Shown here: positions 6,851-38,819 of the stretch, piece by piece
Layout: every line of letters begins with the position of its first letter
Position numbering within the stretch: position 1 is the stretch's first letter
Assembly (NCBI GenBank): GCA_965221485.1
Contig: OZ244893.1
Span: 1,995,529 to 2,059,528, forward strand
Length of the DNA stretch: 64,000 bases
Source of the DNA: Alphaproteobacteria bacterium
Lineage (GTDB): Bacteria; Pseudomonadota; Alphaproteobacteria; MPNO01; UBA830
Direction: 5' to 3'
Made by a program: the position numbers and the translations under genes
The notes under the pieces: generated by a model
The model's database searches: none
What the model saw: the letters and a program-made list of their open reading frames with translations, nothing else
Told to the model about the DNA's origin: nothing

Positions 6851-7285
6851 TTACGGATTGATATAGTTGGCAAGGTTTGGCTGCTCCGGTATCCGCTCGA
6901 TTTCAGAATCCATGTGAACCCATGGAAGCGCCCGATCGGCCCAGATATTCAGCTGGATCGGAACCCAACTGGGATCATCCAGTGTGCCAGCATAAACGAC
7001 CCTCAGATGCGGGCGTGCTACCGACGCCGAATACAGGACCGTACCGCACTTGTCACAAAAATTGACGGAAATCCTGTTGCCGCTGTCGGCAACGCGGGTT
7101 CGGGATCTGGGCTCACCCTTCTTCAGTTTCAGCGCCTCGGTCCGAAGCTGAACCGAGATTCCGAACGCACTCCCGGTTCGGCGCTGGCATTCCTTGCAAT
7201 GGCAGCAATAGGACAGCAACGGCTTCTCTGTCATTTCGTATCGTATCTCGCCACAAGCGCAGCCGCCTTCGTAGGGTGGAGACAT
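6851..7285 (-). CDS. GFA (glutathione-dependent formaldehyde-activating / CENP-V-like) zinc-binding family protein
   Basis: The GFA Cys pattern is present (CACGEIRYE...CCHCKECQRRTGSAF...CDKCG). I chose the internal ATG at 7285 (MSPPYEGG) with an AAAGGGA RBS over the longer track ORF. Confidence 0.7.
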   Translation of the reverse strand: MSPPYEGGCACGEIRYEMTEKPLLSYCCHCKECQRRTGSAFGISVQLRTEALKLKKGEPRSRTRVADSGNRISVNFCDKCGTVLYSASVARPHLRVVYAGTLDDPSWVPIQLNIWADRALPWVHMDSEIERIPEQPNLANYINP

Positions 7286-7845
7286 GTTCAGTCCCTTTCG
7301 TTTCGAAACCCGGGAAAGTGTCATCCGGCCCTCTTGCCCGGGCCTTCGCGACAACGCCAATCATACAATGAAAAGCGGTCTATGATTCGTCAAATCTCGC
7401 GAATTTGAAGCTTGGCCAGAAGGAGCCAGAAACTCAGCTACCGCAACATTCACAGCTATGGGCGGAAGTATTGAACCACTGCCCCGACACGCAAAAACCG
7501 TGGTGTGGCATGACGATCCGGGGTCTGCCGGTTTCGTCATTATCTACGGGGCTGATCAGCGCGCGGTGAAAACTTCCGAAGCCACGCCAGGACGTCGGTC
7601 CCCAAATGACTATAATTGTTAGCGGCAACAATAAATCTCCCATTTTGGAGTGACAATCGGTGAAATTGCGTCAGTCGGATCCAAGTAAACATTCCCGAGG
7701 GTGTGTACAGCTGCTGACGTACAGCCGGATTCGACATGTGTGTCGAAAATGTTCCACGCTCCATTGCCGAGACGGAAAACCATACCGTCCCCGAAGACAA
7801 CACCAAGAAGCGTCAGCTCAGGCTCGCCCTTCGATCGAGGATTTC

Positions 7846-8232
7846 CTAACTCTCTAGTGGATTGAGCTCCGCTCTCACCTTGCGAGCCCAGTCTTCGCCC
7901 TGCCTCTGATCTGACCTGGCGACCCTCGGTAAATCGCGGAAAACAATCCGGGATACACGTTTCCGCGTTCCCTCAGGCGAACGCTCGTATCCGATGACCC
8001 AACGAAAGATGCTGCCCAAGACCATGCGCGAAGCGTCGTGTTCCGAAATTTCCGTCATCGGAATGATGGCTTCCTCGCTCTCGTACTCGCGGCCGGCTGT
8101 CAGATCGACCAACCTCGCCACGAACTCTTCGTCGCCAATATCGACCACATGTCCTTCCCACTGTTGCAATGCTTGCAGCGTAGGCCATCTGGCAACCCGA
8201 GCGACGGGTGGGGAAAAGTTAACTATCGGCAT
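7846..8232 (-). CDS. Hypothetical protein (island accessory ORF)
   Basis: ~128 aa from the internal ATG at 8232 (MPIVNFSPP...). I recognise no family. It lies in the lower-GC segment downstream of the ATPase/partner pair. It is weakly supported. Confidence 0.3.
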   Translation of the reverse strand: MPIVNFSPPVARVARWPTLQALQQWEGHVVDIGDEEFVARLVDLTAGREYESEEAIIPMTEISEHDASRMVLGSIFRWVIGYERSPEGTRKRVSRIVFRDLPRVARSDQRQGEDWARKVRAELNPLES

Positions 8233-8408
8233 GGTGTCCAAAGTATTGGGCAAAACAGTAGATGAGTGTAGAGTATCTGCTGTGTTGGCCCCTCGGCAAT
8301 AAGAGTTAGTCTCCACATGCGATCGTGTTTGCCTGACTGCGTCGTCCAATTCCAATCCCGGACTGGCGTGCTTGTCGTCGGGATTCTTTATGCGCAAATC
8401 CAAGCGCC

Positions 8409-9239
8409 TCACCGCAGTGGGCTGACCGGACGGCTCCATGGCTGCCCCCGCCCCGCAGTCGCCAGGGCCATCACATGATCGACGATGGCATCGGCGCGTC
8501 TAACCGACAATTCAAAGCCATTCTCGAGAAACCCGTGTAGCGCCGCGCGGCCGTCCGCTGCCGGGCTATCGATCAAAACGTGATCATTGATGTGAACGTA
8601 GATTTCGTTCCCTCTGTCTCCAATTTGAACCGACGGCTCTACCGTTAGTTTGATCTGTCCTCCCTAGGGTCTGCCCTCTGGCCGAATTTGCCTCATGGTC
8701 AGCGATCCCATCTCACCTTTAGATCCACCTGAACGGAACACATCGGTCCATTCACCCCAAGGCCCTACCGGCGCCAATAATCTGGCGGTCCGATCCGATG
8801 CTGTGGCGCCCAGCGCTCGAAAATGGATTCCGCGGTTGACGCCAAGCGCTTTGACTGGCGAATGGGAGAGCAGTTCCTTGAACACGCGAACCACCAGATC
8901 GCATATACCAACGTGTAAATCCTGCTGTGTCCTGGAGCAAAATCTGTCGTATGTCGCTCGAAACTGAAGCCATTCGGTGGAAAACGCCACTAGGTGACGA
9001 TGAGCGACCTGAATATCAGCGTATTCCACAACGGCTCTTGGCAGGATTTCATGACGAGCGAACCAAGGCGGCGTGAAGATTGCCAGATTGAAACACACCT
9101 GTGAAAGCCATCCAGGTACCCGGTGCTCCACCAATTCCACGGTGCACCCTGGCGACGGACGGCTGCGAAAACCTGTCCCAGTCCACCCGCGCCGTCGCGG
9201 TCGAGGTAATCGACAAGGTGGGGTGTTGGCCCACCCCAA
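8409..9239 (-). pseudogene. Partner gene of the AAA15 ATPase: TOPRIM-like (DUF4435 / split-OLD-like) nuclease candidate, interrupted by an in-frame TAG
   Basis: A TTG start at 9239 sits 14 nt after the ATPase stop (three frames open here; TTG/191-aa frame chosen as most protein-like, boundary low-confidence). The 191-aa ORF ends at a TAG at 8664–8666. The same frame stays open for another 84 codons to a TGA at 8409–8411. The read-through product would be ~275 aa. It contains VVEYADIQ (candidate TOPRIM Glu) and LIDSPAADGRAAL (candidate DxD...G metal site). The N-terminal 40 aa are Arg-rich, and the region after residue ~140 is Gly/Arg-rich, so additional frameshifts or decay are possible. Confidence 0.4.
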
Positions 9240-9252
9240 GCCCAGATACGCT

Positions 9253-10509
9253 TCACTGGGGCTTGCCCATACGCTCGAGCAACTTGAACCGCCTTACCTC
9301 GATGTCAGCCCGGCCAAGGGCAGGATCGCGCGGCGACAGTTCCAACAAACTTTGCCGCAGTTCGATAGCCTCCGGGGACTCGCCCATGCCGTTCGAAACC
9401 AGGTTCCTGTAATGCACCAGAATCTCTGCGAACTTGTTACCGTTTGGCCGCTCGTCTACCCCCATCACTGTCTCAAGCACATCGCCCGCTTCAGCGCCAT
9501 AGGTGGGTGCGGAGACCGACTCCGGCACGATTCCGTGCTGGTCTCGCCGAAGCCCTACGACATGTTCCGGTTTGACGGTCGTCAATACCGTCGGACTGTT
9601 CGTGGAAACGATAAACTGCGTGTTGGGAAACGTCCTCGCCAGGTCGTCGAGAACCCTCTGCTGCCACAAAGGATGTAAATGGAGTTCGATCTCGTCGATA
9701 AGCACGACCGCTTCTGACTGAAGCGGATCGTCGAGATGCGGATTCCCCTGAGCCATCCGCCGCGCCAGGTCAGCAGATAGGGCAAGCATGATGCTGCAAC
9801 CGCCACCCAACTGCTCGATAGAAAGTTCTTCCGACTGTAGGGTAACCACGAAACGAAGTGGACCGAACGCGATCTTTGGCTCAGATACGTCGGGGAGCAC
9901 GGATTCGATGGCCGCGCGTACAGCTTTCAGCTCCTTGAGTTGATGGCCGAAGTCGCGACGCTCCTTTTGTTCTCGCAGCTCTTCATTCTCTTTGGCGTAA
10001 AACCACTTGAAGAAATCCCGAAAGTCGGTCCGGGCAGACAATGCGCCCTGCAATGCCGCATAGCGCGTAAACTCGACCTTCAGCCCACTGCGGTACCGCG
10101 GCTGATCAAGGACAGCCCGATCTGCATTGTAAAAAGCCAAAATTGGCAGGTCGAGTGGCTGTGTCTTTTCCCGATCCGCATTCACGATGGCGGCCATCGC
10201 CTCCCTCAACTCCCGGTGTGCGGGCGTTCTTAGCGACCTCCCCAAGCGTCGGTCCCACGCGATTCCGTTCACGGCCGTCAGCCCCACCCGTGCCGGCTGT
10301 AGGTCGCGAGCGTCCGACCTGCGAAATCCAATACCTGACACATCGGGCAAAAGCAGGGAAATGCTTCCAAGCCCCGTTGCGATCGCGCTCAGCACACTGG
10401 TCTTTCCATGCGCATTGTTGCCGTGAAGAACCGTCAGATCGGGATTCAGCGTCAGGTCGAGCTTTTCGATCGCGCGATAGTTCTCGATCTCGACACGCGC
10501 CAGTTTCAT
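9253..10509 (-). CDS. AAA15/AAA21 (ABC-type, OLD / PtuA / AriA-like) ATPase without a nuclease domain
   Basis: The ATG at 10509 has a GGTGGAG RBS; the track ORF begins 19 codons earlier. The N-terminus is MKLARVEIENYRAIEKLDLTL with a Walker A LHGNNAHGKTSVLSAI. A long helical insertion follows, then Walker B/D-loop VVLIDEIELHLHPLWQQRVLDDL and STNSPTVL. ~130 aa follow the Walker B, too short for a fused TOPRIM. Confidence 0.75.
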   Translation of the reverse strand: MKLARVEIENYRAIEKLDLTLNPDLTVLHGNNAHGKTSVLSAIATGLGSISLLLPDVSGIGFRRSDARDLQPARVGLTAVNGIAWDRRLGRSLRTPAHRELREAMAAIVNADREKTQPLDLPILAFYNADRAVLDQPRYRSGLKVEFTRYAALQGALSARTDFRDFFKWFYAKENEELREQKERRDFGHQLKELKAVRAAIESVLPDVSEPKIAFGPLRFVVTLQSEELSIEQLGGGCSIMLALSADLARRMAQGNPHLDDPLQSEAVVLIDEIELHLHPLWQQRVLDDLARTFPNTQFIVSTNSPTVLTTVKPEHVVGLRRDQHGIVPESVSAPTYGAEAGDVLETVMGVDERPNGNKFAEILVHYRNLVSNGMGESPEAIELRQSLLELSPRDPALGRADIEVRRFKLLERMGKPQ

Positions 10510-11332
10510 GATCTCCACCCCGTCGTCCCGTATTCCATCAACAGGCATCACAGCGCGGTCGGACACTGTGCGGGTTCCTTCTGCACACCTTCATGCCGAG
10601 CCTGAAGGCTGACCCCTCACAGCCCATCGCCTCTACATCCTCCGCCAAGGCGCGAATGCTATAGCGGCTGCGCATGGGCGCCAGGGTAATAGACGCAACT
10701 CCAGCGTGAGCGTCATGTCTTCAGATCATCCAAAAATGTTCGCTCAAGACTCACCGTTCCCGGAGGATCGGTCGATCCGGTCAACGTCCCACTCAGCCAA
10801 CGCGGGCAAATACTTCTCGATCACGTCGCCAATACGGGCACCATAAACCTCTCGCCTGGTCAACGAGGCAACCAACATCAGTTCGTGCTCGTCTAGAGTG
10901 ATGAAGACTTAGCGCCTCCCGTGGAACCAAATTCTGCAGACTCTGGTTCAACTGGCCGCGCAAAATCCGATTTGCCAGGCGCTCTGTCGATCATAGCACC
11001 TGGGGTGCGCAAAGCATTTCGTTTCTTCCCCGCCGTTCCCTGACCGGGTAACCGGCCTCGCAAACAGCCTCGCCATCATCCATCGGTGGGGATTCACATG
11101 AATCGGATGGATAACAGATAGAAAGGAGGTTTGAACCATTGCAGTTCAAGAAGTCCGTAACAGCAGTGGCCTCCAACCAGCCGATGTCCCTGCCCCGGAA
11201 CCGCTCCGGAGACCTGACCCCTTGGTGTCAACCCCTGACCGGAAAATGACAAGACGAGTCGGCGGGGCTGGATACCAGCGCCCCTGTCACTGTCTTGCAG
11301 CACTTCACCAAAATGAGGTTTATAATGCCCAC

Positions 11333-12421
11333 ATGTATCTTGAGAATTGCTGGTATGTTGCTGCCTACTCCCACGAACTTGGCAAGGGCCAGGCGCTGGG
11401 CCGTACGCTGTTGAACCGGCCCGTGGTCCTGTTTCGCCTGTCTGACGGAACGGCCACAGCACTTGAAGACCGTTGCTGTCACAGGCAACTTCCCCTGTCG
11501 TGCGGCCAGGTAACCGGTGACCGAATACGTTGCGGTTATCACGGACTGGAATTCGACGCATCCGGTGCCTGTGTCGCCATACCCGGCCAGTCCCGAATTC
11601 CGCCCGACGCGTCGGTTCCGTCCTGGCCAGTCGTCGAGCGCCACGGTTTCCTTTGGCTCTGGCCGGGAGAAAAGGCACTTGCCGATACCAGCCTGATACC
11701 CGACTGGTGGTGGAGCAGTCATCCTGACTGGGCATTCAATCCGGGAGCGCTTCTCCACATTGACTGCCACTATCAGCTGATTGTTGACAATCTCCTCGAC
11801 CTTTCGCATCTCGGCTATGTCCATGCCAACAGTCTCGGTAACAGCGCCATTGTCGATTTTCCGGTCCGGACCGAGAAAGACGGCAGCATTGTCCGAATGA
11901 CTCGCTGGATCATGGATCGTCCACCTCCACCCCTTTACAGGAAAATCGGAGATTTTCAGGGCAACGTGGACCGTTGGCAGATCGTGGAAACGATCCCGCC
12001 TGGCCATACGACCATATTCGCCGGCTGCGGCCCCTCCGGGTCCGGAGACTCCCGAAACTGGGAAACATATGGAAACGCATTTCATCTCCGGGTCCTGAAT
12101 GCCCCGACACCGGAAACCGGGACGTCATCCTGGTATTTTTACGGCCATGCCTGGACTCCGGGGAACGGTGACCCCGCCCTCAAACAGCAGATGTATGACG
12201 ACTTTCTTCAGATATTCCATGAGGACGTGGCGATACTTGAAGCGCAACAGCGTTCCATGACGCGTGATCCGGAACGGCCTCTTGTCGATATTTCCGTTGA
12301 TGCGCCCGGACTCGCTGCGCGACGTGCCCTGGCCAAGCACATATCGGCCGAGAACATTCGAAGGTGTCAGGCATCCACAGCCACCGAAACCGATCCGGCG
12401 ATCGCTGTGGCACACCGGTAA
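11333..12421 (+). CDS. Rieske [2Fe-2S] non-heme-iron oxygenase alpha subunit, VanA / phthalate-family (paralog 1)
   Basis: The start was corrected to the ATG at 11333 (MYLENCWYVAAYSHEL); the track ORF has a 37-aa spurious extension. It has the Rieske motif CCHRQLPLSCG...CGYHG and the mononuclear-iron region NLLDLSHLGYVH. At ~362 aa it matches VanA-type single-component oxygenases. Confidence 0.8.
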   Translation: MYLENCWYVAAYSHELGKGQALGRTLLNRPVVLFRLSDGTATALEDRCCHRQLPLSCGQVTGDRIRCGYHGLEFDASGACVAIPGQSRIPPDASVPSWPVVERHGFLWLWPGEKALADTSLIPDWWWSSHPDWAFNPGALLHIDCHYQLIVDNLLDLSHLGYVHANSLGNSAIVDFPVRTEKDGSIVRMTRWIMDRPPPPLYRKIGDFQGNVDRWQIVETIPPGHTTIFAGCGPSGSGDSRNWETYGNAFHLRVLNAPTPETGTSSWYFYGHAWTPGNGDPALKQQMYDDFLQIFHEDVAILEAQQRSMTRDPERPLVDISVDAPGLAARRALAKHISAENIRRCQASTATETDPAIAVAHR

Positions 12422-12651
12422 CGATGCCGGGATCACGTTACTGGAAGGTACGGTTGCTCGACATCGGCGAACTGCTGACGATTTGCGGTATCACGAATTC
12501 CCTGGTTACCTGTGGGCCTCGAACCGGCCACCGGAACGGCGGACGCCATCGAAAACAGCTCTGCAACAGGCAAGCCGGAACATTGCAGCAGTGTGACAGC
12601 GCCACGCATAGCACCCACCGGAACCGGCAAAACAGCCGCGGCAAGAGACAG

Positions 12652-13461
12652 GTGAGGACTTGCCCCATCCGGATCACCGGATGCTGGGCGATTGTGTCCG
12701 TTCTCCTGGTCTTAAATCCCGCGTTCGCAGAAAACACCCGTTCACTGGATCCCGGGTCCGGTCTGCGGAAGAGCTGCGCCGGCATGGGGGGAGACTGCCG
12801 GAACGTGGCCATCCCGGACCATGTCAAAACCTATTTTACTTTGGGTGTCATGCACAGCCAGGGCCTTGGCGCAGACAGGGACCCCGCACGCGCCGCGGAA
12901 TGGTTTGGACGTGCGGCGGAACTTGGCCATCCGGAAGCGCAGTATCTGCTTGGTGCCATGTATGAAGAAGGTCGGGGTGTTCCCCTTGATGACAGCGCGG
13001 CAGCTTCCTGGTACCGGAAAGCTGCAGCCCAGGGCCACATCGTGGCCCAGTACAACCTGGGTGTCATGCTTGTCGAGGGCCGTGGCGTCAAAACCAATGA
13101 CACGGACGCTGTCAGCTGGCTGCAGCGGGCCGCGGAACAGGGGTCACCCGACGCACAGAACGTTTTGGGAATCCTCTATTCCCGGGGGCAGGGTGTCGAA
13201 GCCAATGATGAGCAGGCTGCCCACTTGTTCAGACTGGCTGCCGAACAGGGAAACCCGGACGCCCAGAACAATCTGGGTCTCCTCTATCGGAACGGACGCG
13301 GAGTTGAAATCAGTCCCGTCCGTGCCAAGGCATGGCTGAAACTTGCCGCAAGCAACGGCCACCAGGGGGCCACAAGACCACTTGAAGAAATAGAGAAGCA
13401 GATGTCAGCCACCGAGAATGCCGAAGCGGAGCAACTGTTTGAAGCCTTGCAGGCCAGATGA
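12652..13461 (+). CDS. Sel1-repeat (SLR/TPR-like) secreted protein
   Basis: At least 6 Sel1 repeats are present (AQYLLGAMYEEGRGVPLDDSAAASWYRKAAAQG, etc.). The signal peptide MRTCPIRITGCWAIVSVLLVLNPAFA comes from a GTG start at 12652. The track's 365-aa ORF carries a spurious N-terminal extension overlapping the upstream gene. Confidence 0.7.
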   Translation: MRTCPIRITGCWAIVSVLLVLNPAFAENTRSLDPGSGLRKSCAGMGGDCRNVAIPDHVKTYFTLGVMHSQGLGADRDPARAAEWFGRAAELGHPEAQYLLGAMYEEGRGVPLDDSAAASWYRKAAAQGHIVAQYNLGVMLVEGRGVKTNDTDAVSWLQRAAEQGSPDAQNVLGILYSRGQGVEANDEQAAHLFRLAAEQGNPDAQNNLGLLYRNGRGVEISPVRAKAWLKLAASNGHQGATRPLEEIEKQMSATENAEAEQLFEALQAR

Positions 13462-13663: not shown

Positions 13664-14719
13664 ATGACTATGTTCTTGCAGAACGCTTGGTATGTCGGCG
13701 CCTGGGGCACTGAGGTCGGCCGCCAGACTCTCCTGCGCCGTGTTCTTCTTGATGAGCCTGTCGTCTTCTACCGTCGCGAAGATGGCTCGCCGGTCGCACT
13801 TGCCGACAAGTGCGCCCATCGACATGCACCGCTGTCGCAAGGCCGTCTCGTAGGCAACGATATTGAATGCCCCTATCACGGCCTGACCTATGACGGCGCG
13901 GGCAACTGCGTCCGTGTCCCGGGCCAGTCAACAATCCCTCCGGGATGCCGGATTCGTTCCTACCCCGTTGTCGAACGCTATCAGTGGATCTGGATCTGGA
14001 TGGGGGATCCGGCCCTGGCCGACCCAGATGACATCGAGGACTTTCACTGGATGGACAGTCCCGGCTGGCGTGCCAAGGGCGAGCTGATGCATCTCGAAGC
14101 CAACTACAAGCTGCTCGTCGAGAATCTTCTCGATCTCTCGCACCTGACCTTCATTCACAAGACGACGCTCGGGACTGACGCCATTGCGGAGACACCGATG
14201 AAATTCGAGCGCGGGGATCGACATGTCACCGTGACCCGCTGGATCATGAATTCAACGGCTCCGGTGTTTTTCCAGAAGGCCGGCGGATTCACACCCGATG
14301 AGGCCGTCGATCGCTGGCAGCATATCACCTGGACTCCTCCTGCTTTCGTACGCCTCGATATTGGTGCGGCACGCGCCGGCACAGGTGCCATCAATGGCGA
14401 CCGGTCCCAGGGTTTCACCATGCGAAATCTAAATGCCATCACCCCGGAAACTGACAAGACCACCCATTATTTCTGGGCCCAGGCCCATGATTTCCGCGTC
14501 GACGAACCATGGATCACGGACCTTCTGGTCCAGAACATTCATGAGGCGTTTCTCGAGGATCTTGCGATCATCGGGTTGCAGCAGCGCAACCTGGATACCG
14601 GAACCACCTTGCCGCGAGTTGATATCAATCATGATGGCGGCGGGCTTCAGGCCATTCGGATGCTTGACGACTTCATAGAGGCCGATCAACGCGTTGCCAC
14701 AGCCCAGGCTGCGGAATAG
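13664..14719 (+). CDS. Rieske [2Fe-2S] non-heme-iron oxygenase alpha subunit, VanA-family (paralog 2)
   Basis: 351 aa with the N-terminus MFLQNAWYVGAW and the Rieske motif CAHRHAPLSQG...CPYHG, plus NLLDLSHLTFIH. A GGGAGG RBS precedes the ATG. It is clearly paralogous to 11333..12421. Confidence 0.85.
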   Translation: MTMFLQNAWYVGAWGTEVGRQTLLRRVLLDEPVVFYRREDGSPVALADKCAHRHAPLSQGRLVGNDIECPYHGLTYDGAGNCVRVPGQSTIPPGCRIRSYPVVERYQWIWIWMGDPALADPDDIEDFHWMDSPGWRAKGELMHLEANYKLLVENLLDLSHLTFIHKTTLGTDAIAETPMKFERGDRHVTVTRWIMNSTAPVFFQKAGGFTPDEAVDRWQHITWTPPAFVRLDIGAARAGTGAINGDRSQGFTMRNLNAITPETDKTTHYFWAQAHDFRVDEPWITDLLVQNIHEAFLEDLAIIGLQQRNLDTGTTLPRVDINHDGGGLQAIRMLDDFIEADQRVATAQAAE

Positions 14720-33631: not shown

Positions 33632-33726
33632 ACCGGAACCCAGGTGCCACCCGGCTGAATTCTTCTGTTATCGTTATGAAAAACGGCGGAAGTGTTGCCT
33701 GCCAATCGTGTAACAACAGGGTCGTT

Positions 33727-35613
33727 ATGACCAAAACAGCGTGGAGACTGCGCGCAAAAATGCCCATTAGACGGATTTGGGGCCGCGTTCCTGCTGCCGC
33801 AATAGCCATTGCAGTGGCAATCTCTCTGGCTGGCATCACATCGGATGTGCTCGCTCAGGACAAGACCCTCGGCCCGCGCGCTGCGGCCATCGACGCAAAC
33901 AAGAACGGCGTCATTGATCGGAACGAAGCCAGGGGGCCACTCGACGAGAGTTTCAGCGAAATGGACTGCGACAGGTCCGGTGCGCTTGATGGCGAAGAAA
34001 TCAGAAACTTCTTTTCCGGCACCGGATGCCCGGAGACCCAGACTGCCGCTCCGGAATCGACAAGCCCCGCCCCCGACACGACACTCGGCCCGCGCGCTGC
34101 AGCCATTGACGCAAACAAGAACGGCGTCATTGATCGGGACGAGGCAAGGGGACCGCTCGACGAGAGTTTCAGCGAAATGGACTGCGACAGGTCCGGTGCG
34201 CTCGATGGGGCAGAAATCAGAAACTTCTTTTCCGGCACCGGATGCCCGGAGACCCAGACTGCCGCTCCGGAATCGACGGGCCCCGCCCCCGACACGACAC
34301 TCGGCCCGCGCGCTGCAGCCATTGACGCAAACAAGAACGGCGTCATTGATCGGGACGAGGCAAGGGGACCGCTCGACGAGAGTTTCAACGAGATGGACTG
34401 CGACAAGTCAGGTGCGCTCGATGGCGCAGAAATCAGGAACTTTTTTTCCGGTTCGGGGTGCCCCGAGACCCAGACTGCCGGCCGTACAGGGGCAACACCG
34501 CCCGGGCCGCAACCGGGACAAGCTTCCGGCGGGAGCAACGCACAGCGACCACGCGGGCGTCCGCCCCGTTCGGTGCGCGTCGATGAGGTGATCAGGGAAA
34601 CGCAGTCGCAAACGTTTCCGGTCATCGGCCGGTTGGTGGCACGCCGTGCCGGCATCGTCGCATCCTTCATCCCGGGCGCCGTCGCCGGACTTAACTTTGA
34701 CGTGGGAGACCGGGTTAAAAAGCGTGACATCATTGCTACTCTGGCTCCCGCCAGACTGAAGGCGGCCCGCGACAAGTTTCAGGCTGCGAGGGCAACCCGC
34801 GATGCCATGGTGCGAACAGCCGAATCAGAACATAACAAGAAGGTGCAGGAACTTCGGCGCATGGAGAGCCTGCGTACGTCTTCCGCGTTCTCACGTGCAC
34901 GATACGAGGATCTTGTCCGCGATGTCGAGGGGCGCAAGGCGGTCATCGCAGAACGACGTTCACTGCTGAAACAAGCGGAAGCGGAACTCAAGCAGGCCTC
35001 GATCGATCTTGCGAATGCCACTATCCGCGCACCCTATGACGGTGTGATCGTGGAGAAACACACCGAAATTGGCTCCTACGTCAGCTTCGGTGGATCGGTC
35101 GTCACCATGATCAGCGATAGCGATATCGAGGTCGAAGCCGGCGTTCCCTCCGACCTGATCGCCGGCCTCAATCGTGGAATGGCGATTCGCGTAAGGCTTG
35201 ACGACGAAACGGAACACCGGTCCGTGATCCGCGCCATCGTGCCACAGGAAAATCCGCGTACCCGAACCCGTCTTGTGCGCATGACGCCGGAGTTTGGAGA
35301 GACGTCCAAGCAACTGGCTGTCAACCAAAGTGCGACCGCGATGATCCCGATTGGCAAGATTCGTGAGGTTGTCACTGTCCACAAGGATGCCATCGTACAC
35401 CGGAACAATGCCCAGCAGGTCTATGTTGTCCGCAACAACCGCGCCTTTCAGAGACCGGTCGAAATCGGCGATGCTGTCGGTAATCGATACATTGTCCTGT
35501 CAGGACTGAAGCCTGGTGATGTTGTGGTGGTCCAGGGCAACGAGGGACTGCCCCCGGGATCCAGGATCCGTATCTTGACCGACACCCTGGCAGTCGGGGT
35601 CACCACACAATGA
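33727..35613 (+). CDS. RND-efflux membrane-fusion protein (periplasmic adaptor) with an N-terminal triple EF-hand-pair repeat extension
   Basis: The C-terminal ~350 aa form a typical HlyD/AcrA-like adaptor (coiled-coil hairpin, lipoyl and beta-barrel regions), and the gene overlaps the RND pump start (ATGA). The N-terminal ~270 aa are a signal peptide plus three ~72-aa repeats. Each repeat contains two 12-residue EF-hand loops (DANKNGVIDRNE and DCDRSGALDGEE). Start choice (33727) is uncertain. Confidence 0.75.
   Translation: MTKTAWRLRAKMPIRRIWGRVPAAAIAIAVAISLAGITSDVLAQDKTLGPRAAAIDANKNGVIDRNEARGPLDESFSEMDCDRSGALDGEEIRNFFSGTGCPETQTAAPESTSPAPDTTLGPRAAAIDANKNGVIDRDEARGPLDESFSEMDCDRSGALDGAEIRNFFSGTGCPETQTAAPESTGPAPDTTLGPRAAAIDANKNGVIDRDEARGPLDESFNEMDCDKSGALDGAEIRNFFSGSGCPETQTAGRTGATPPGPQPGQASGGSNAQRPRGRPPRSVRVDEVIRETQSQTFPVIGRLVARRAGIVASFIPGAVAGLNFDVGDRVKKRDIIATLAPARLKAARDKFQAARATRDAMVRTAESEHNKKVQELRRMESLRTSSAFSRARYEDLVRDVEGRKAVIAERRSLLKQAEAELKQASIDLANATIRAPYDGVIVEKHTEIGSYVSFGGSVVTMISDSDIEVEAGVPSDLIAGLNRGMAIRVRLDDETEHRSVIRAIVPQENPRTRTRLVRMTPEFGETSKQLAVNQSATAMIPIGKIREVVTVHKDAIVHRNNAQQVYVVRNNRAFQRPVEIGDAVGNRYIVLSGLKPGDVVVVQGNEGLPPGSRIRILTDTLAVGVTTQ
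33868..34480 (+). repeat. 216-bp near-perfect tandem repeat (~2.8 copies) inside the adaptor-protein gene
   Basis: Copies begin at 33868, 34084 and 34300 (CTCGGCCCGCGCGCTGC...). Only a few substitutions separate the copies. The repeats are in-frame and encode the EF-hand-pair module. Confidence 0.85.
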
Positions 35614-38600
35614 ATATCATTCGCCTTGCTATCGAACGACCGACCGCGGTCGTTGCGCTGGTGCTCATGATCATCCTTTTCGGATATGTCGCCCTGCAAC
35701 GGATTCCGATTCAGATGGCGCCGGATGTACGTCAGCCGATCATCAATGTGACGACCGTTTGGCCGGGAGCGGCGCCGGCTGAGATCGAGCGCGAAATCAT
35801 TCTCCCACAGGAAGATCAGCTCAAGGGGCTCGAGGGTGTGCGGAAGATGACGTCGCGGGCCATGCCGAACCGCAGTCAGATCACCCTGGAGTTCGGGCCA
35901 AGTGTCAATTTCAATCGCGCCTTGCTGCTGGTTGCCAACCGGCTCGATCGGGTCGCCCGTTATCCGAACGAGGCCAATCAACCTGTTCTGTCTACATCGG
36001 GGACCGAAGACAACGCCATTGCCTGGTTCGTCCTGACCCGCGAGGAGGGCAATAATCGGGATCTGATAAATTACGGCGATTTCCTGATTGATGTGGTTCA
36101 GGAACGTTTTGAGCGCATCAAGGGCGTAGCCGGGGTCAATATATTTGGCGACACGGAACGCGAAATGACCATCACGGTTACGCCGCAGTCCCTGGCCCGT
36201 TACGGAATGACGGTCAGCGAGGTGCTTCGTCGATTGCGTGCCTCAAACACTTCCATGACAGCCGGAGATGTGGAGGAGGGGAAACGCCGCTATGTCGTGC
36301 GGACCGAAGGCGGCATCACCGCAACCCGGGAAGCCGAACAGATCGTTCTCCGCTCGGACAGCAACAGCGGGACAAATTTCGGTTCGGGAGCCGGTCTTGG
36401 TCGGGTTCTTGTCGGAGATATTGCCGGGGTCAATATCGGATACAAGAAGGCGCAGGCGCGGCTGCGGCAGCTGGATGAACCGGCACTGGGTTTCAATATA
36501 ACCCGTGAGCAGGGCGCAAACGTCATCGAAACGATGAGAGAGGTGAACCTCGTCGCTGCAGAACTGGCGGCCGGTCCCCTCAAGGAACAGGGGCTGATTG
36601 TCGAACAGGTCTATGACGAAACCGACTACATCCAGTCCTCTATCAATCTGGTGCTCCAGAATATCTATGTGGGCGGCGTACTCGCAATTGTGATCCTGCT
36701 GGTTTTTCTTCGCTCCTGGCGCCCCACCCTCGTGATCGCCCTGTCCATCCCCGTATCTGTCATCGGATCCTTCGTGGCCATGGCCGTCCTTGGTCGATCT
36801 CTGAACGTGGTCAGCCTTGCTGGAATAGCCTTCGCTGTCGGTATGGTTGTTGACGCCGCGATTGTGGTGCTGGAGAACATCTACAGGATGCGTCAGGAGG
36901 GCCGATCCGCTGCGGAAGCAGCCTATCATGGTGTCCAGCAGGTCTGGCCGGCGGTTCTGGTTTCCTCCCTGACAACCGTGATGGTGTTCATCCCGATTCT
37001 GATCATGGACCTTGAAGTCGGCCAGTTGTTCCGGGATATCGCTGTCGCGATTTCTGTTTCGGTCCTGCTCTCGCTGCTGGTTGCGGTCACGCTGATTCCG
37101 GCATTATCGAAGGGCCTGCTTGGTGGCCGCGTCGACAGGAAGGATTTCAGGATACGCGTTCCTATCGTTGACTGGTTTTCAGCCTGGTTTGTGAGATTTT
37201 GGACCGGTTATGCGCGCGTGGTTGCGCGCTACAAGGCGGCTGCACTTGTTCTGGTTGCGTGCATCATCGGTGTCGCCACCGTTGTCACCATCGCGATCAT
37301 GCCCAAGCTCGACTACCTTCCAACAGGAAGCCGAAACTTCGCGATCGGGATTGTCATTCCGCCGGCCGGCTACAACCTCGACACTAACGAAGCCATCCTC
37401 AAGAAGCTGTCAGACGCCACAAAACCCTTTTGGTCGCGTGGTCCGGAAGCTGAAACAACACCGCCCGAAGATCAGATTATCGATCGCTTTTTCTATGTCG
37501 CCCGCCTTGGCCGCATGTTTTTCGCTGCCACCCATGTCAATGAACGCCGGGCCCATGAACTGATTCCCTTGCTTACGGAGCGGGCGCGGAAGGAGCCCGG
37601 CGTCCTTGCCTTTGTATTCCAGCCCTCGCTGTTCGGGCGCTCCATCGGTTCGGGGCGTAACATCGACATTGAAGTCGCGGGGCCCCAGCTCGATGATGTC
37701 TATGCGGTGGGGCAGGAGGTCTTCTTCTCGACCCTAGGAGCGTTGCCGCCAAGTCAGGGACATCGTGCACGCCCCCGCCCCGCACTGACCCTGGGAGCCC
37801 CCGAAGTCAGAATTCTGCCTGATCATGTCCGTCTCACCGACAACGGCCTGTCAGCACGGGAGCTCGCTGAGTCCGTTGACGCGTTCAACGACGGCGTGCG
37901 CGTGGATGAAATCTCCTTGGACGGCCGGCGGATCGATCTGGTTCTGAAGGGCCCGGAACCGCAAAGGGAATCGACACAGGCCATAAGGGCCTTGCCTGTC
38001 GTTACGTCAGATGGCCGGATCGTTAACGTCTCCAGTCTGGCTGATGTCATCGAAACCGCCGGGCCCACAGAAATCCAGAGGATAGACCGGGCACGAACTA
38101 TAACCATCCGGGTCAGCCCGTCTCCCGGAATGCCGCTCCAGGCGGCGATGGACATCATTGAAAAAGATGTGCTGGCCCCGATCACAGCCAAGGGTCTTCC
38201 CGAGGGTGTGCGATTTCGCCTTGCGGGAAGCGCCGACAAACTCGTCGTGACCTGGAATCATATGGTTCTCGACCTCGTTCTCGCTCTGATCATCGTCTAT
38301 CTGGTGATGGCGGTTCTGTTCGAGAGTTTTCTTTATCCCTGGATTGTCATGCTTGCGGTGCCGGTCGCGGCGGCCGGAGGGTTAGGCGGCCTCGCGCTGC
38401 TCAACACATATGTGAACCAGCCCCTCGACATGCTCACAATGCTTGGCTTCGTGATATTGATCGGAATTGTTGTCAATAGCGCCATTCTGCTTGTGCACCA
38501 AACCCTCTACCACACGCGTCACGACGGAATGGAAGTCAACCGGGCCATAGAAACGGCGACCCGAAACCGTATTCGCCCTATCTTCATGTCCACCCTGACG

Positions 38601-38819
38601 TCGATATTTGGAATGCTGCCGCTTGTCGTCTTTCCCGGCTCCGGTTCGGAACTCTACCGGGGCCTTGGTTCAGTAGTCCTTGGAGGCCTGGCGTTATCGG
38701 CGGTTCTGACAATGGCTATCGTTCCGCCAATGATGTCCCTGACTGTCGGAGTCGTTGAACGCCGGAGAATGCGACGGAAAAAGATGACGGTTCCGGAGGC
38801 GCAACCGGCACAGACATGA
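35610..38819 (+). CDS. RND-family efflux pump inner-membrane permease (AcrB/AcrD-like)
   Basis: 1069 aa with 12 TMs and two large periplasmic loops. The start is translationally coupled to the adaptor gene. Confidence 0.9.
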   Translation: MNIIRLAIERPTAVVALVLMIILFGYVALQRIPIQMAPDVRQPIINVTTVWPGAAPAEIEREIILPQEDQLKGLEGVRKMTSRAMPNRSQITLEFGPSVNFNRALLLVANRLDRVARYPNEANQPVLSTSGTEDNAIAWFVLTREEGNNRDLINYGDFLIDVVQERFERIKGVAGVNIFGDTEREMTITVTPQSLARYGMTVSEVLRRLRASNTSMTAGDVEEGKRRYVVRTEGGITATREAEQIVLRSDSNSGTNFGSGAGLGRVLVGDIAGVNIGYKKAQARLRQLDEPALGFNITREQGANVIETMREVNLVAAELAAGPLKEQGLIVEQVYDETDYIQSSINLVLQNIYVGGVLAIVILLVFLRSWRPTLVIALSIPVSVIGSFVAMAVLGRSLNVVSLAGIAFAVGMVVDAAIVVLENIYRMRQEGRSAAEAAYHGVQQVWPAVLVSSLTTVMVFIPILIMDLEVGQLFRDIAVAISVSVLLSLLVAVTLIPALSKGLLGGRVDRKDFRIRVPIVDWFSAWFVRFWTGYARVVARYKAAALVLVACIIGVATVVTIAIMPKLDYLPTGSRNFAIGIVIPPAGYNLDTNEAILKKLSDATKPFWSRGPEAETTPPEDQIIDRFFYVARLGRMFFAATHVNERRAHELIPLLTERARKEPGVLAFVFQPSLFGRSIGSGRNIDIEVAGPQLDDVYAVGQEVFFSTLGALPPSQGHRARPRPALTLGAPEVRILPDHVRLTDNGLSARELAESVDAFNDGVRVDEISLDGRRIDLVLKGPEPQRESTQAIRALPVVTSDGRIVNVSSLADVIETAGPTEIQRIDRARTITIRVSPSPGMPLQAAMDIIEKDVLAPITAKGLPEGVRFRLAGSADKLVVTWNHMVLDLVLALIIVYLVMAVLFESFLYPWIVMLAVPVAAAGGLGGLALLNTYVNQPLDMLTMLGFVILIGIVVNSAILLVHQTLYHTRHDGMEVNRAIETATRNRIRPIFMSTLTSIFGMLPLVVFPGSGSELYRGLGSVVLGGLALSAVLTMAIVPPMMSLTVGVVERRRMRRKKMTVPEAQPAQT

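What the first reader, a model, noticed from the sequence alone, without database searches (positions are those of the whole stretch)
7290..11330. Lower-GC accessory segment carrying an AAA15/ABC ATPase + TOPRIM-like partner: candidate OLD / PARIS (AriAB) / Septu-class anti-phage module
Between the GFA gene and the first Rieske oxygenase the sequence is visibly AT-richer than the flanks. My by-eye estimate is mid-50s % GC against ~62%. It encodes no housekeeping genes. Its core is a 418-aa ATPase with Walker A (GNNAHGKTS) and a Walker B/D-loop (VVLIDEIELHLHPLWQQRV) separated by a long helical insert. This is the ABC-type AAA15/AAA21 architecture of OLD-family, PtuA and AriA proteins. The ATPase has no nuclease domain of its own. 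A partner ORF on the same strand starts 14 nt after the ATPase stop. Its reading frame, ignoring one TAG, would give a ~275-aa protein with TOPRIM-like Glu and DxD...G motifs, as in DUF4435/AriB. ATPase plus small nuclease pairs of this kind are recurrent phage-defence systems. There is no recognisable integrase, but an orphan 44-codon remnant sits at the right edge.
Basis: partly seen in the sequence, partly recalled or inferred. Interest (0 to 1): 0.75.

Follow-up and report, generated by a model that had tools for sequence, protein, structure and literature searches.

The report
Decayed Septu defence-island relic
The segment is the broken remains of a phage-defence island: a Septu ATPase that has lost its nuclease partner, joined to a damaged copy of a widespread but undescribed three-gene cassette, so this copy is ordinary and probably inactive, though the cassette itself deserves testing.

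Summary
The 418-aa ATPase (10512..9253, minus strand) is real and is a PtuA, the Septu ATPase (PADLOC E=1.9e-109). The proposed TOPRIM/AriB partner is not supported. In 63 of 80 relatives, PtuA is followed directly by a ~250-aa HNH nuclease, PtuB. Here only the first 22 PtuB codons survive (9256..9191).

The "partner ORF" is a chimera. A short DUF7680 fragment is fused to codon 18 of an unannotated ~233-aa protein I call X. X carries the TAG and deviates at 29 of 101 family-conserved positions. Downstream lie an intact partner gene Y (8439..7846) and the first 85 codons of a metallo-beta-lactamase (MBL) gene. A DUF7680 remnant lies upstream of PtuA.

In related genomes, PtuA-PtuB and X-Y-MBL sit as cargo inside Hma (DUF499 / DUF7680 / DUF1156 / SNF2) defence operons. 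The window holds none of the three large Hma genes. PtuA has also lost its signature serine and H-loop histidine.

The GC dip is real but small: 56.6% against 58.4%, not against 62%.

Verdict: this is a relic of a known island architecture and very probably inactive. X-Y-MBL has no Pfam, NCBIfam or PADLOC model, yet X forms 2,330 clusters at 50% identity. It is a candidate new defence cassette.

The parts
10562..10702 (-). Remnant of a DUF7680 gene, the small gene that follows HmaC/DUF499 in Hma operons. Only residues ~100-146 of ~159 survive.
   Evidence: tblastn gives 57% identity over 47 aa to DUF7680 of L001 (E=6e-12 in the 4.2-kb segment database). It lies just upstream of PtuA, in the position the intact gene occupies in other loci such as L019 and L074.
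9253..10512 (-). PtuA, the Septu ABC-type ATPase. It is a full-length 418-aa ORF; the longest ORF starts at GTG 10566.
   Evidence: PADLOC PtuA PDLC00311 at E=1.9e-109; Pfam AAA_15 and AAA_21; 51-73% identity over residues 1-417 to 80 loci. Signature LSGG is LGGG here (Ser in 72 of 74 relatives). The H-loop His is Asn (His in 73 of 74).
9191..9256 (-). First 22 codons of PtuB, the HNH nuclease partner of PtuA. The rest of the gene is deleted.
   Evidence: MKRIWAWGGPTPHLVDYLDRDG against VKRIRALDGPTPGLVDYLDCDG of L016: 77% identity, E=2e-6. The start overlaps the PtuA stop as GTGA. Intact PtuB of relatives hits PADLOC PtuB at E=5e-59.
9093..9149 (-). Short internal fragment of a second DUF7680 copy (residues ~57-73), fused in frame to X. 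The GTG at 9140 is the start of the pseudo-ORF called in another assembly.
   Evidence: GCTVELVEHRVPGWLSQ against GRNLELVEHRVLRRLSQ of L001 DUF7680: 12 of 22 identical, E=0.006 in the segment database. This match is weak and the assignment is an inference.
8412..9092 (-). Pseudogene of X, an unannotated ~233-aa family. It covers codon ~18 to the end, with an in-frame TAG at 8664-8666.
   Evidence: 49-54% identity to P0002-P0004, which read Pro or Leu at the TAG position. The N-terminal 17 residues are replaced. 29 of 101 family-conserved columns deviate, against a median of 2.5 and a maximum of 9 in 120 relatives. TAG is a normal stop codon in 7 of 38 long ORFs of the window.
7846..8439 (-). 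Y, the conserved partner gene of X (197 aa). It is intact and overlaps the end of X.
7637..7891 (-). Degenerate N-terminal 85 codons of the MBL-fold gene that follows Y in intact cassettes. It is cut off at the metal-binding motif.
   Evidence: 38% identity over 85 aa to the L085 MBL, E=2e-13. The family-invariant ATHWHDDH reads TPKWE here, and the homology ends there.
10703..11329 (.). Unassigned spacer between the island relic and the first Rieske/VanA oxygenase gene. It contains the 44-codon ORF at 10744..10878.
   Evidence: No protein-family, Rfam, tblastn or repeat signal.
7325..7636 (.). Unassigned, AT-richer spacer between the MBL remnant and the GFA gene.
   Evidence: The interval 7361-7845 is 51.8% GC. 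No homology was found.

Best explanation
The segment is a deletion-riddled relic of a horizontally acquired composite defence island.

In intact relatives the operon is HmaC(DUF499) - DUF7680 - [cargo] - HmaB(DUF1156 methylase) - HmaA(SNF2/PLD helicase). The cargo slot holds Septu (PtuA-PtuB), the three-gene cassette X-Y-MBL, a GmrSD-like gene, or several of these in tandem. Here deletions have removed:
- HmaC and most of DUF7680;
- all but 22 codons of PtuB;
- the start of X;
- everything from MBL codon ~85 onward, including HmaB and HmaA.

What remains is, in order on the minus strand: a DUF7680 remnant, PtuA, a PtuB remnant, a second DUF7680 fragment fused to X (with a TAG), Y, and an MBL remnant.

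Shown: the identity of each piece, the missing parts, the nonsense codon, and the loss of conserved residues.

Inferred: the module no longer defends against phage. Both predicted nucleases are gone (the PtuB HNH and the ComEC-type MBL). PtuA also carries substitutions of the ABC signature Ser and the H-loop His, which is what relaxed selection would produce.
For: - PtuA identity: PADLOC E=1.9e-109.
- In 80 loci with PtuA relatives, 63 have intact PtuB immediately downstream. None has X directly after PtuA.
- 47 of the 80 carry Hma genes or remnants within 6 kb. Many show the full order DUF499 - DUF7680 - PtuA - PtuB - DUF1156 - SNF2, for example L019, L023, L026 and L074.
- Hma identity: HmaC 1.5e-95, HmaB 4e-69, HmaA 8e-56.
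- X-Y-MBL occupies the same slot in L001 and L002.
- The window remnants were mapped by tblastn.
- X is degenerate: a TAG, a replaced N-terminus, and 29 of 101 conserved columns changed.
- In PtuA, signature S is G and H-loop H is N, at positions conserved in 72 and 73 of 74 relatives.
- No DUF499, DUF1156 or SNF2 hit exists anywhere in the 64-kb window.
- The TAG is present in a second assembly of the same genome, and TAG is used as a stop elsewhere in the window.
- Literature: Septu is commonly embedded between the hma genes (bioRxiv 10.1101/2024.01.29.577857). PtuA and PtuB act as a 6:2 complex with PtuB as the nuclease (PMC12640716).
Against: - PtuA (418 codons) and Y (197 codons) are still open. 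Y is as well conserved as its relatives (2 of 53 deviant columns). So either the decay is recent or these two genes are still under selection.
- The total number of deviant columns in PtuA (7 of 149) is within the family range (median 4, maximum 12).
- No sister genome was available to date the deletions.
- There are no expression data.
Confidence: 0.85

Rival explanations
1. PtuA has swapped its HNH partner for X and Y, and PtuA - X - Y is a working, non-canonical ATPase-plus-effector defence module. The TAG is either tolerated, giving a split X, or suppressed.
For: - PtuA and Y are intact ORFs on one strand with short gaps between them.
- Y or X-Y-MBL lies within 6 kb of PtuA in 7 of 80 relatives.
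- The part of X after the TAG is still recognisably conserved.
Against: - None of the 80 relatives has X directly after PtuA. Where both modules occur they are separate cassettes, each with its own partners.
- X lacks its conserved N-terminus and 29 of 101 conserved residues.
- The MBL gene, the only predicted enzyme of the cassette, is truncated at its metal-binding site.
- A 22-codon PtuB stub still overlaps the PtuA stop, which marks a deletion rather than a designed swap.
- TAG is an ordinary stop codon in this genome.
Confidence: 0.06
2. The island is dead as a system, but the orphan PtuA (and perhaps Y) is retained for another role, for example as a nuclease-free ATP-binding sensor or decoy, or as a partner acting in trans with a Septu or Hma locus elsewhere in the 4.48-Mb chromosome.
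For: - PtuA is a full-length open frame with Walker A and B intact.
- An H-loop His-to-Asn change would lower hydrolysis but not necessarily ATP binding (general knowledge of ABC ATPases).
- Other loci also carry PtuA without intact PtuB: 17 of 80, some at contig ends.
Against: - The signature Ser and H-loop His are conserved in at least 97% of relatives and both are lost here.
- No second Septu or Hma locus is visible in the 64-kb window. The rest of the chromosome could not be searched.
Confidence: 0.07
3. Assembly or sequencing errors create the apparent damage, and the real locus is intact.
For: The two assemblies of this genome differ by one homopolymer indel (window 12135), so indel errors do occur.
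Against: - The TAG is a substitution and is identical in both assemblies.
- About 680 nt of PtuB, about 860 nt of MBL and more than 9 kb of Hma genes are missing. Base-calling errors cannot produce that.
Confidence: 0.02

Closest known systems
Septu (PtuA ABC ATPase + PtuB HNH nuclease), type I
   Same: The ATPase matches PtuA models end to end (PADLOC E=1.9e-109). Its relatives are followed by PtuB (PADLOC E=5e-59). The first 22 PtuB codons, with the usual start/stop overlap, are still present.
   Different: PtuB, the effector, is deleted. The PtuA signature Ser and H-loop His are substituted. This is a remnant, not a functional Septu system.
Hma system (HmaA helicase, HmaB methylase, HmaC DUF499 ATPase), also called Type-1 BREX-related (BR) system, with embedded cargo (Payne et al., bioRxiv 10.1101/2024.01.29.577857; PMC12839542)
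   Same: Relatives of this PtuA sit between DUF7680 (after HmaC) and HmaB, exactly the 'embedded Septu' architecture described. The window keeps DUF7680 fragments at the expected positions.
   Different: None of the three Hma genes is present in the window. Only scars of the host operon remain.
Hma-embedded candidate (HEC) defence cassettes, HEC-01 to HEC-09
   Same: X-Y-MBL occupies the same cargo slot (L001, L002, L031) and also occurs free-standing (L094-L104). That is the paper's criterion for an autonomous embedded defence module.
   Different: None of HEC-01 to HEC-09 has this gene content. X and Y hit no PADLOC v2 model, even when 42 diverse family members are scanned. The MBL gives only weak hits to LmuA, RTasMBL and PDC-M48B.
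PARIS (AriA/AriB), OLD and Gabija: ATPase plus TOPRIM systems
   Same: They share the general ABC-ATPase architecture (AAA_15/AAA_21).
   Different: No TOPRIM or DUF4435 domain appears in any frame of the segment. The best ATPase hits are nearly all PtuA models; none is AriA, GajA or OLD.
Retron type I-A (Ec78/Eco7), which co-opts PtuAB
   Same: The ATPase also hits retron ATPase_I-A (8e-82) and NCBIfam PtuA of retron Ec78 (267 bits).
   Different: The score is below the equivalog cutoff of 500. There is no reverse transcriptase and no retron ncRNA or other Rfam hit in 7000-11600.

Membership tests
Septu | PtuA-family ABC ATPase | tested here: met
   PADLOC PtuA PDLC00311 at E=1.9e-109, with further full-length PtuA model hits. 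51-73% identity to 80 PtuA loci.
Septu | Adjacent PtuB HNH nuclease gene | tested here: not met
   Only codons 1-22 remain (9256..9191). There is no HNH motif in any frame. 63 of 80 relatives have intact PtuB.
Septu | Conserved ATPase catalytic motifs (Walker A, Walker B, signature, H-loop) | tested here: inconclusive
   Walker A and B are present. Signature LSGG reads LGGG and the H-loop His is Asn, at positions conserved in 72 and 73 of 74 relatives. The effect on activity was not measured.
PARIS (AriA/AriB) | DUF4435/TOPRIM partner AriB next to the ATPase | tested here: not met
   No Pfam, PADLOC or NCBIfam hit for the partner ORF, with or without read-through. The fold of its family is not TOPRIM.
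OLD / Gabija | TOPRIM nuclease domain fused to or beside the ATPase | tested here: not met
   The ATPase has no C-terminal nuclease domain and no TOPRIM hit occurs in the segment.
Retron type I-A | Reverse transcriptase and msr/msd ncRNA upstream of PtuA | tested here: not met
   No RT ORF. No Rfam match at E<=1 in 7000-11600. NCBIfam PtuA scores 267 bits against a cutoff of 500.
Hma / Type-1 BR system | HmaC (DUF499), HmaB (DUF1156 methylase) and HmaA (SNF2 helicase) genes | tested here: not met
   No tblastn hit at E<=1e-4 anywhere in the window. Only DUF7680 fragments are found.
X-Y-MBL cassette (undescribed; defined here) | Three intact co-directional genes: X (~233 aa), Y (~200 aa) and MBL (~360 aa, with HxHxDH and PHHGS motifs) | tested here: not met
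   X is interrupted by a TAG and has lost its N-terminus. Y is intact. MBL is reduced to 85 degenerate codons without the metal-binding motif.
Genomic island (horizontally acquired) | Absent from the same position in related genomes | not testable with these tools
   No close relative of the flanking genes was found. The best GFA hits are 36-44% identical. Exact-protein look-up returns only the same genome. Indirect support: relatives of the cargo genes occur in unrelated phyla, and this is among the lowest-GC 4 kb of the window (lowest 0.5% of 4-kb windows).

The most novel reading that the evidence does not exclude
X-Y-MBL is an undescribed, widespread, autonomous anti-phage cassette. It comprises a protein of TBP/AdoMetDC-like alpha+beta fold (X), a protein with an OB-like barrel (Y), and a ComEC-type metallo-beta-lactamase nuclease (MBL). 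It rides in the cargo slot of Hma/BR-type-1 operons. The partial DUF7680 3' ends and DUF1156 5' ends that flank cassettes in many loci, and the scars in this window, record cassette exchange by recombination at those conserved flanks.
Probability: 0.4. Interest if true: 0.6.

Novelty: new member of a known kind. Interest (0 to 1): 0.35.

Why it matters
For this window, the result corrects an attractive but wrong annotation. There is no ATPase-plus-TOPRIM pair here and probably no working defence system, only the wreck of a Septu-in-Hma island.

More broadly, the relic led to a three-gene cassette, X-Y-MBL:
- X alone forms 2,330 clusters at 50% identity, and no Pfam, NCBIfam or PADLOC model covers X or Y.
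- It occupies the same Hma slot from which seven of nine tested candidates proved to be real defence systems (bioRxiv 10.1101/2024.01.29.577857).
- It also exists free-standing and conserved across strains.

That makes it directly testable.

The tandem cassettes, each bordered by fragments of the same two host genes, also suggest how cargo is exchanged inside such operons.

Tried and rejected
- **TOPRIM/DUF4435/AriB partner:** rejected. No HMM hit in three libraries and a different predicted fold for the family.
- **Partner ORF starting at TTG 9239:** rejected. Residues before 9149 match nothing, and 9256..9191 in another frame is the PtuB start.
- **Retron:** rejected. No RT and no ncRNA.
- **TAG recoding:** rejected. 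TAG ends 7 of 38 long ORFs in the window.
- **Independent confirmation of the TAG:** only partial. L003 is another assembly of the same genome, 99.993% identical.
- **Synteny test for island absence:** failed for lack of relatives.
- **Naming the source organism:** failed. The cluster look-up shows only that the window comes from a 4.48-Mb contig.
- **Sequence search of X and Y against PDB:** nothing significant.
- **afdb50 fold library:** unavailable.
- **Flanking repeats, tRNA or integrase as island borders:** none found.
Full report
**1. What is at the coordinates**

All candidate genes between the GFA gene (6851..7324, Pfam GFA 8e-32) and the first Rieske/VanA oxygenase (Pfam Rieske and VanA_C) lie on the minus strand.

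- It has Walker A and Walker B/D-loop and hits Pfam AAA_15 (7.7e-18) and AAA_21 (3e-13).
- The mechanical ORF beginning 14 nt after its stop (TTG 9239) and the in-frame TAG at 8664-8666 are also there.
- The GC dip is real but modest: 56.6% against 58.4% for the window (SD 0.9 for 4-kb windows, lowest 0.5% of such windows). The flanks are 58.1% and 58.6%, not about 62%.

**2. The ATPase is PtuA of Septu**

- PADLOC gives PtuA models as all but one of the 25 best hits listed, the best at E=1.9e-109 (the other is the retron type I-A ATPase, 8e-82).
- NCBIfam's retron-Ec78 PtuA equivalog scores 267 bits, below its cutoff of 500.
- There is no reverse transcriptase ORF and no Rfam hit, so this is not a retron.

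**3. The proposed TOPRIM partner does not exist**

- The 191-aa ORF and the 276-aa read-through hit nothing in Pfam, PADLOC or NCBIfam at E<=1.
- A search of 5.8 billion proteins found three ~235-aa homologues at about 50% identity, plus a 99%-identical copy truncated at the same place.
- These homologues read Pro or Leu where the window has TAG. They align only from window position 9092 onward. I call this family X.
- The next ORF (8439..7846, 197 aa), which I call Y, is homologous to the gene after X in all three homologue loci. There a metallo-beta-lactamase-fold (MBL) gene follows Y.

**4. The true partner of this ATPase is PtuB, and it is deleted here**

- A scan of one genome per species returned 80 loci with PtuA relatives at 51-73% identity.
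- These are MAGs of Binatia, Latescibacterota, Dehalococcoidia, Acidobacteriota, Alpha- and Gammaproteobacteria, Spirochaetia and Candidatus Synechococcus spongiarum. From my own knowledge this looks like a sponge-symbiont community; that is an inference.
- In 63 of the 80, the gene immediately after PtuA is a ~250-aa protein with an HNH motif. It matches PADLOC PtuB at E=5e-59.
- In the window only its first 22 codons survive (9256..9191). They are 77% identical to L016 and start in the usual GTGA overlap with the PtuA stop.

**5. The genomic frame: cargo inside Hma operons**

A tblastn map of all loci shows that PtuA-PtuB of this clade usually lies inside a larger operon: DUF499 - DUF7680 - [PtuA-PtuB] - DUF1156 - SNF2/PLD helicase. 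Of the 80 loci, 47 carry such genes or remnants within 6 kb.

- PADLOC identifies the large genes as HmaC (1.5e-95), HmaB (4e-69) and HmaA/BrxH/DrmD-like.
- NCBIfam calls them "anti-phage-associated" DUF499, DUF1156 and phospholipase-D-like proteins.
- This is the published "Septu embedded in Hma" architecture (bioRxiv 10.1101/2024.01.29.577857). The same system was renamed the Type-1 BREX-related system in PMC12839542.
- X-Y-MBL occupies the same slot in L001 and L002. GmrSD/NsnA-like genes do so in ten loci. Several loci carry two cassettes in tandem, for example L031: DUF499 - DUF7680 remnant - X-Y-MBL - DUF7680 - PtuA-PtuB.
- Cassettes are often bordered by partial DUF7680 3' ends and partial DUF1156 5' ends (L001, L007, L016, L022, L031, L067, L085-L087). 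I read this as a sign of cassette exchange or accretion by recombination at these conserved flanks. That is an inference.

**6. Fine map of the window**

On the minus strand, in order:
- DUF7680 remnant, 10702..10562 (residues 100-146 of 159, 57% identity, E=6e-12);
- PtuA, 10512..9253;
- PtuB codons 1-22, 9256..9191;
- a weak fragment of a second DUF7680 copy, 9149..9093 (residues ~57-73, containing ELVEHRV and LSQ), fused in frame to X;
- X from codon ~18, 9092..8412, with the TAG;
- Y, 8439..7846;
- the first 85 codons of MBL, 7891..7637 (38% identity, E=2e-13).

The MBL remnant ends exactly where the family-invariant ATHWHDDH metal-binding motif should be; the window reads TPKWE. No DUF499, DUF1156 or SNF2 homology exists anywhere in the 64 kb.

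**7. State of the surviving genes**

- X deviates at 29 of 101 columns that are at least 90% conserved in 120 relatives (median 2.5, maximum 9). It is a pseudogene.
- Y deviates at 2 of 53 such columns (median 1), so it looks intact.
- PtuA deviates at 7 of 149 (median 4, maximum 12). Two of those are the ABC signature Ser (LSGG to LGGG; Ser in 72 of 74 relatives) and the H-loop His (to Asn; His in 73 of 74).
- TAG is a normal stop codon here, ending 7 of 38 long ORFs.
- The TAG is also present in a second assembly of the same genome. That assembly differs from the window by a single homopolymer indel, in the Rieske gene.

**8. Mechanism**

Septu works as a 6:2 PtuA:PtuB complex in which the PtuB HNH is the nuclease and ATP binding restrains it (PMC12640716). 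Without PtuB there is no effector. The only predicted enzyme of X-Y-MBL is also truncated. The best-supported reading is therefore an inactive relic of a horizontally acquired Hma island that carried Septu and X-Y-MBL as tandem cargo.

The still-open PtuA and Y frames mean the decay is recent or that these two genes are retained. I could not decide between these, because no sister genome was found.

**9. The X-Y-MBL cassette itself**

- X has 1,177 clusters at 90% identity and 2,330 clusters at 50% identity with E<=1e-3. Y has 679 homologues.
- Neither has a Pfam, NCBIfam or PADLOC hit. For X this holds even when 42 diverse members are scanned individually against Pfam and PADLOC.
- The cassette also occurs free-standing and intact among metabolic genes, conserved across several strains and with no Hma remnants (L094-L097 and L100-L104).
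- A natural X-Y fusion protein exists: P0248, 438 aa.
- The MBL keeps an invariant HxHxDH motif and a PHHGS motif. It is distantly related to the ComEC/Rec2 nuclease domain (PDB 9ic4 at 6e-5; NCBIfam ComEC at 3.6e-7).
- By the "guilt by embedding" criterion, this is a good untested defence candidate. None of the nine published HECs has this content.

**10. Verdict**

- The thing in the window is a new but broken member of a known architecture.
- The interesting by-product is the undescribed cassette.

Noticed in passing
L001, L007, L016, L022, L031, L067, L085-L087: Cargo cassettes inside Hma operons are repeatedly bordered by partial duplicates of the DUF7680 3' end and the DUF1156 5' end. 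Tandem cassettes each carry their own fragment. This looks like cassette exchange or accretion by recombination at conserved flanks.
   Followed up: partly
P0248 (438 aa), from the 50%-identity representative library: A natural fusion of X (residues 1-230) and Y (residues 268-433, 57% identical to a Y homologue). This supports a physical X-Y partnership.
   Followed up: partly
L005-L084 record titles: PtuA relatives at 51-73% identity occur in MAGs of at least eight phyla, including Candidatus Synechococcus spongiarum. This pattern suggests extensive horizontal spread of Hma/Septu islands within one, probably sponge-associated, community. Many copies are fragmented (L007, L009, L039).
   Followed up: no
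window 12135 (inside the first Rieske/VanA gene, 11222..12421): The only difference between the window and a second assembly of the same genome (L003) is an A5/A6 homopolymer indel. It frameshifts the oxygenase in L003, where the gene caller then called a 107-aa fragment and a 285-aa antisense ORF.
   Followed up: yes
window 11222..12421 and 13664..14719: Two paralogous Rieske/VanA-type oxygenase genes flank a Sel1-repeat protein (12364..13461, five Sel1 repeats, Pfam 5.7e-53). Sel1 proteins are a eukaryote-like repeat class. From my own knowledge they are often noted in host-associated bacteria.
   Followed up: no
window 33676..35613: A HlyD-type membrane-fusion protein with N-terminal EF-hand calcium-binding motifs sits directly upstream of an AcrB-family RND pump (35610..38819). 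This is an unusual domain combination.
   Followed up: no
L068 and L070: These Hma loci carry two or three tandem PtuA paralogues (49-53% identity to the window PtuA) but only one PtuB.
   Followed up: no
L098 versus L097: The two strains share the same chromosomal site and an identical X. In L098 the X-Y-MBL cassette is followed by a DUF499 (HmaC) gene. In L097 it is followed by a hydrolase gene instead. This is strain-level gain or loss of Hma parts next to the cassette.
   Followed up: no
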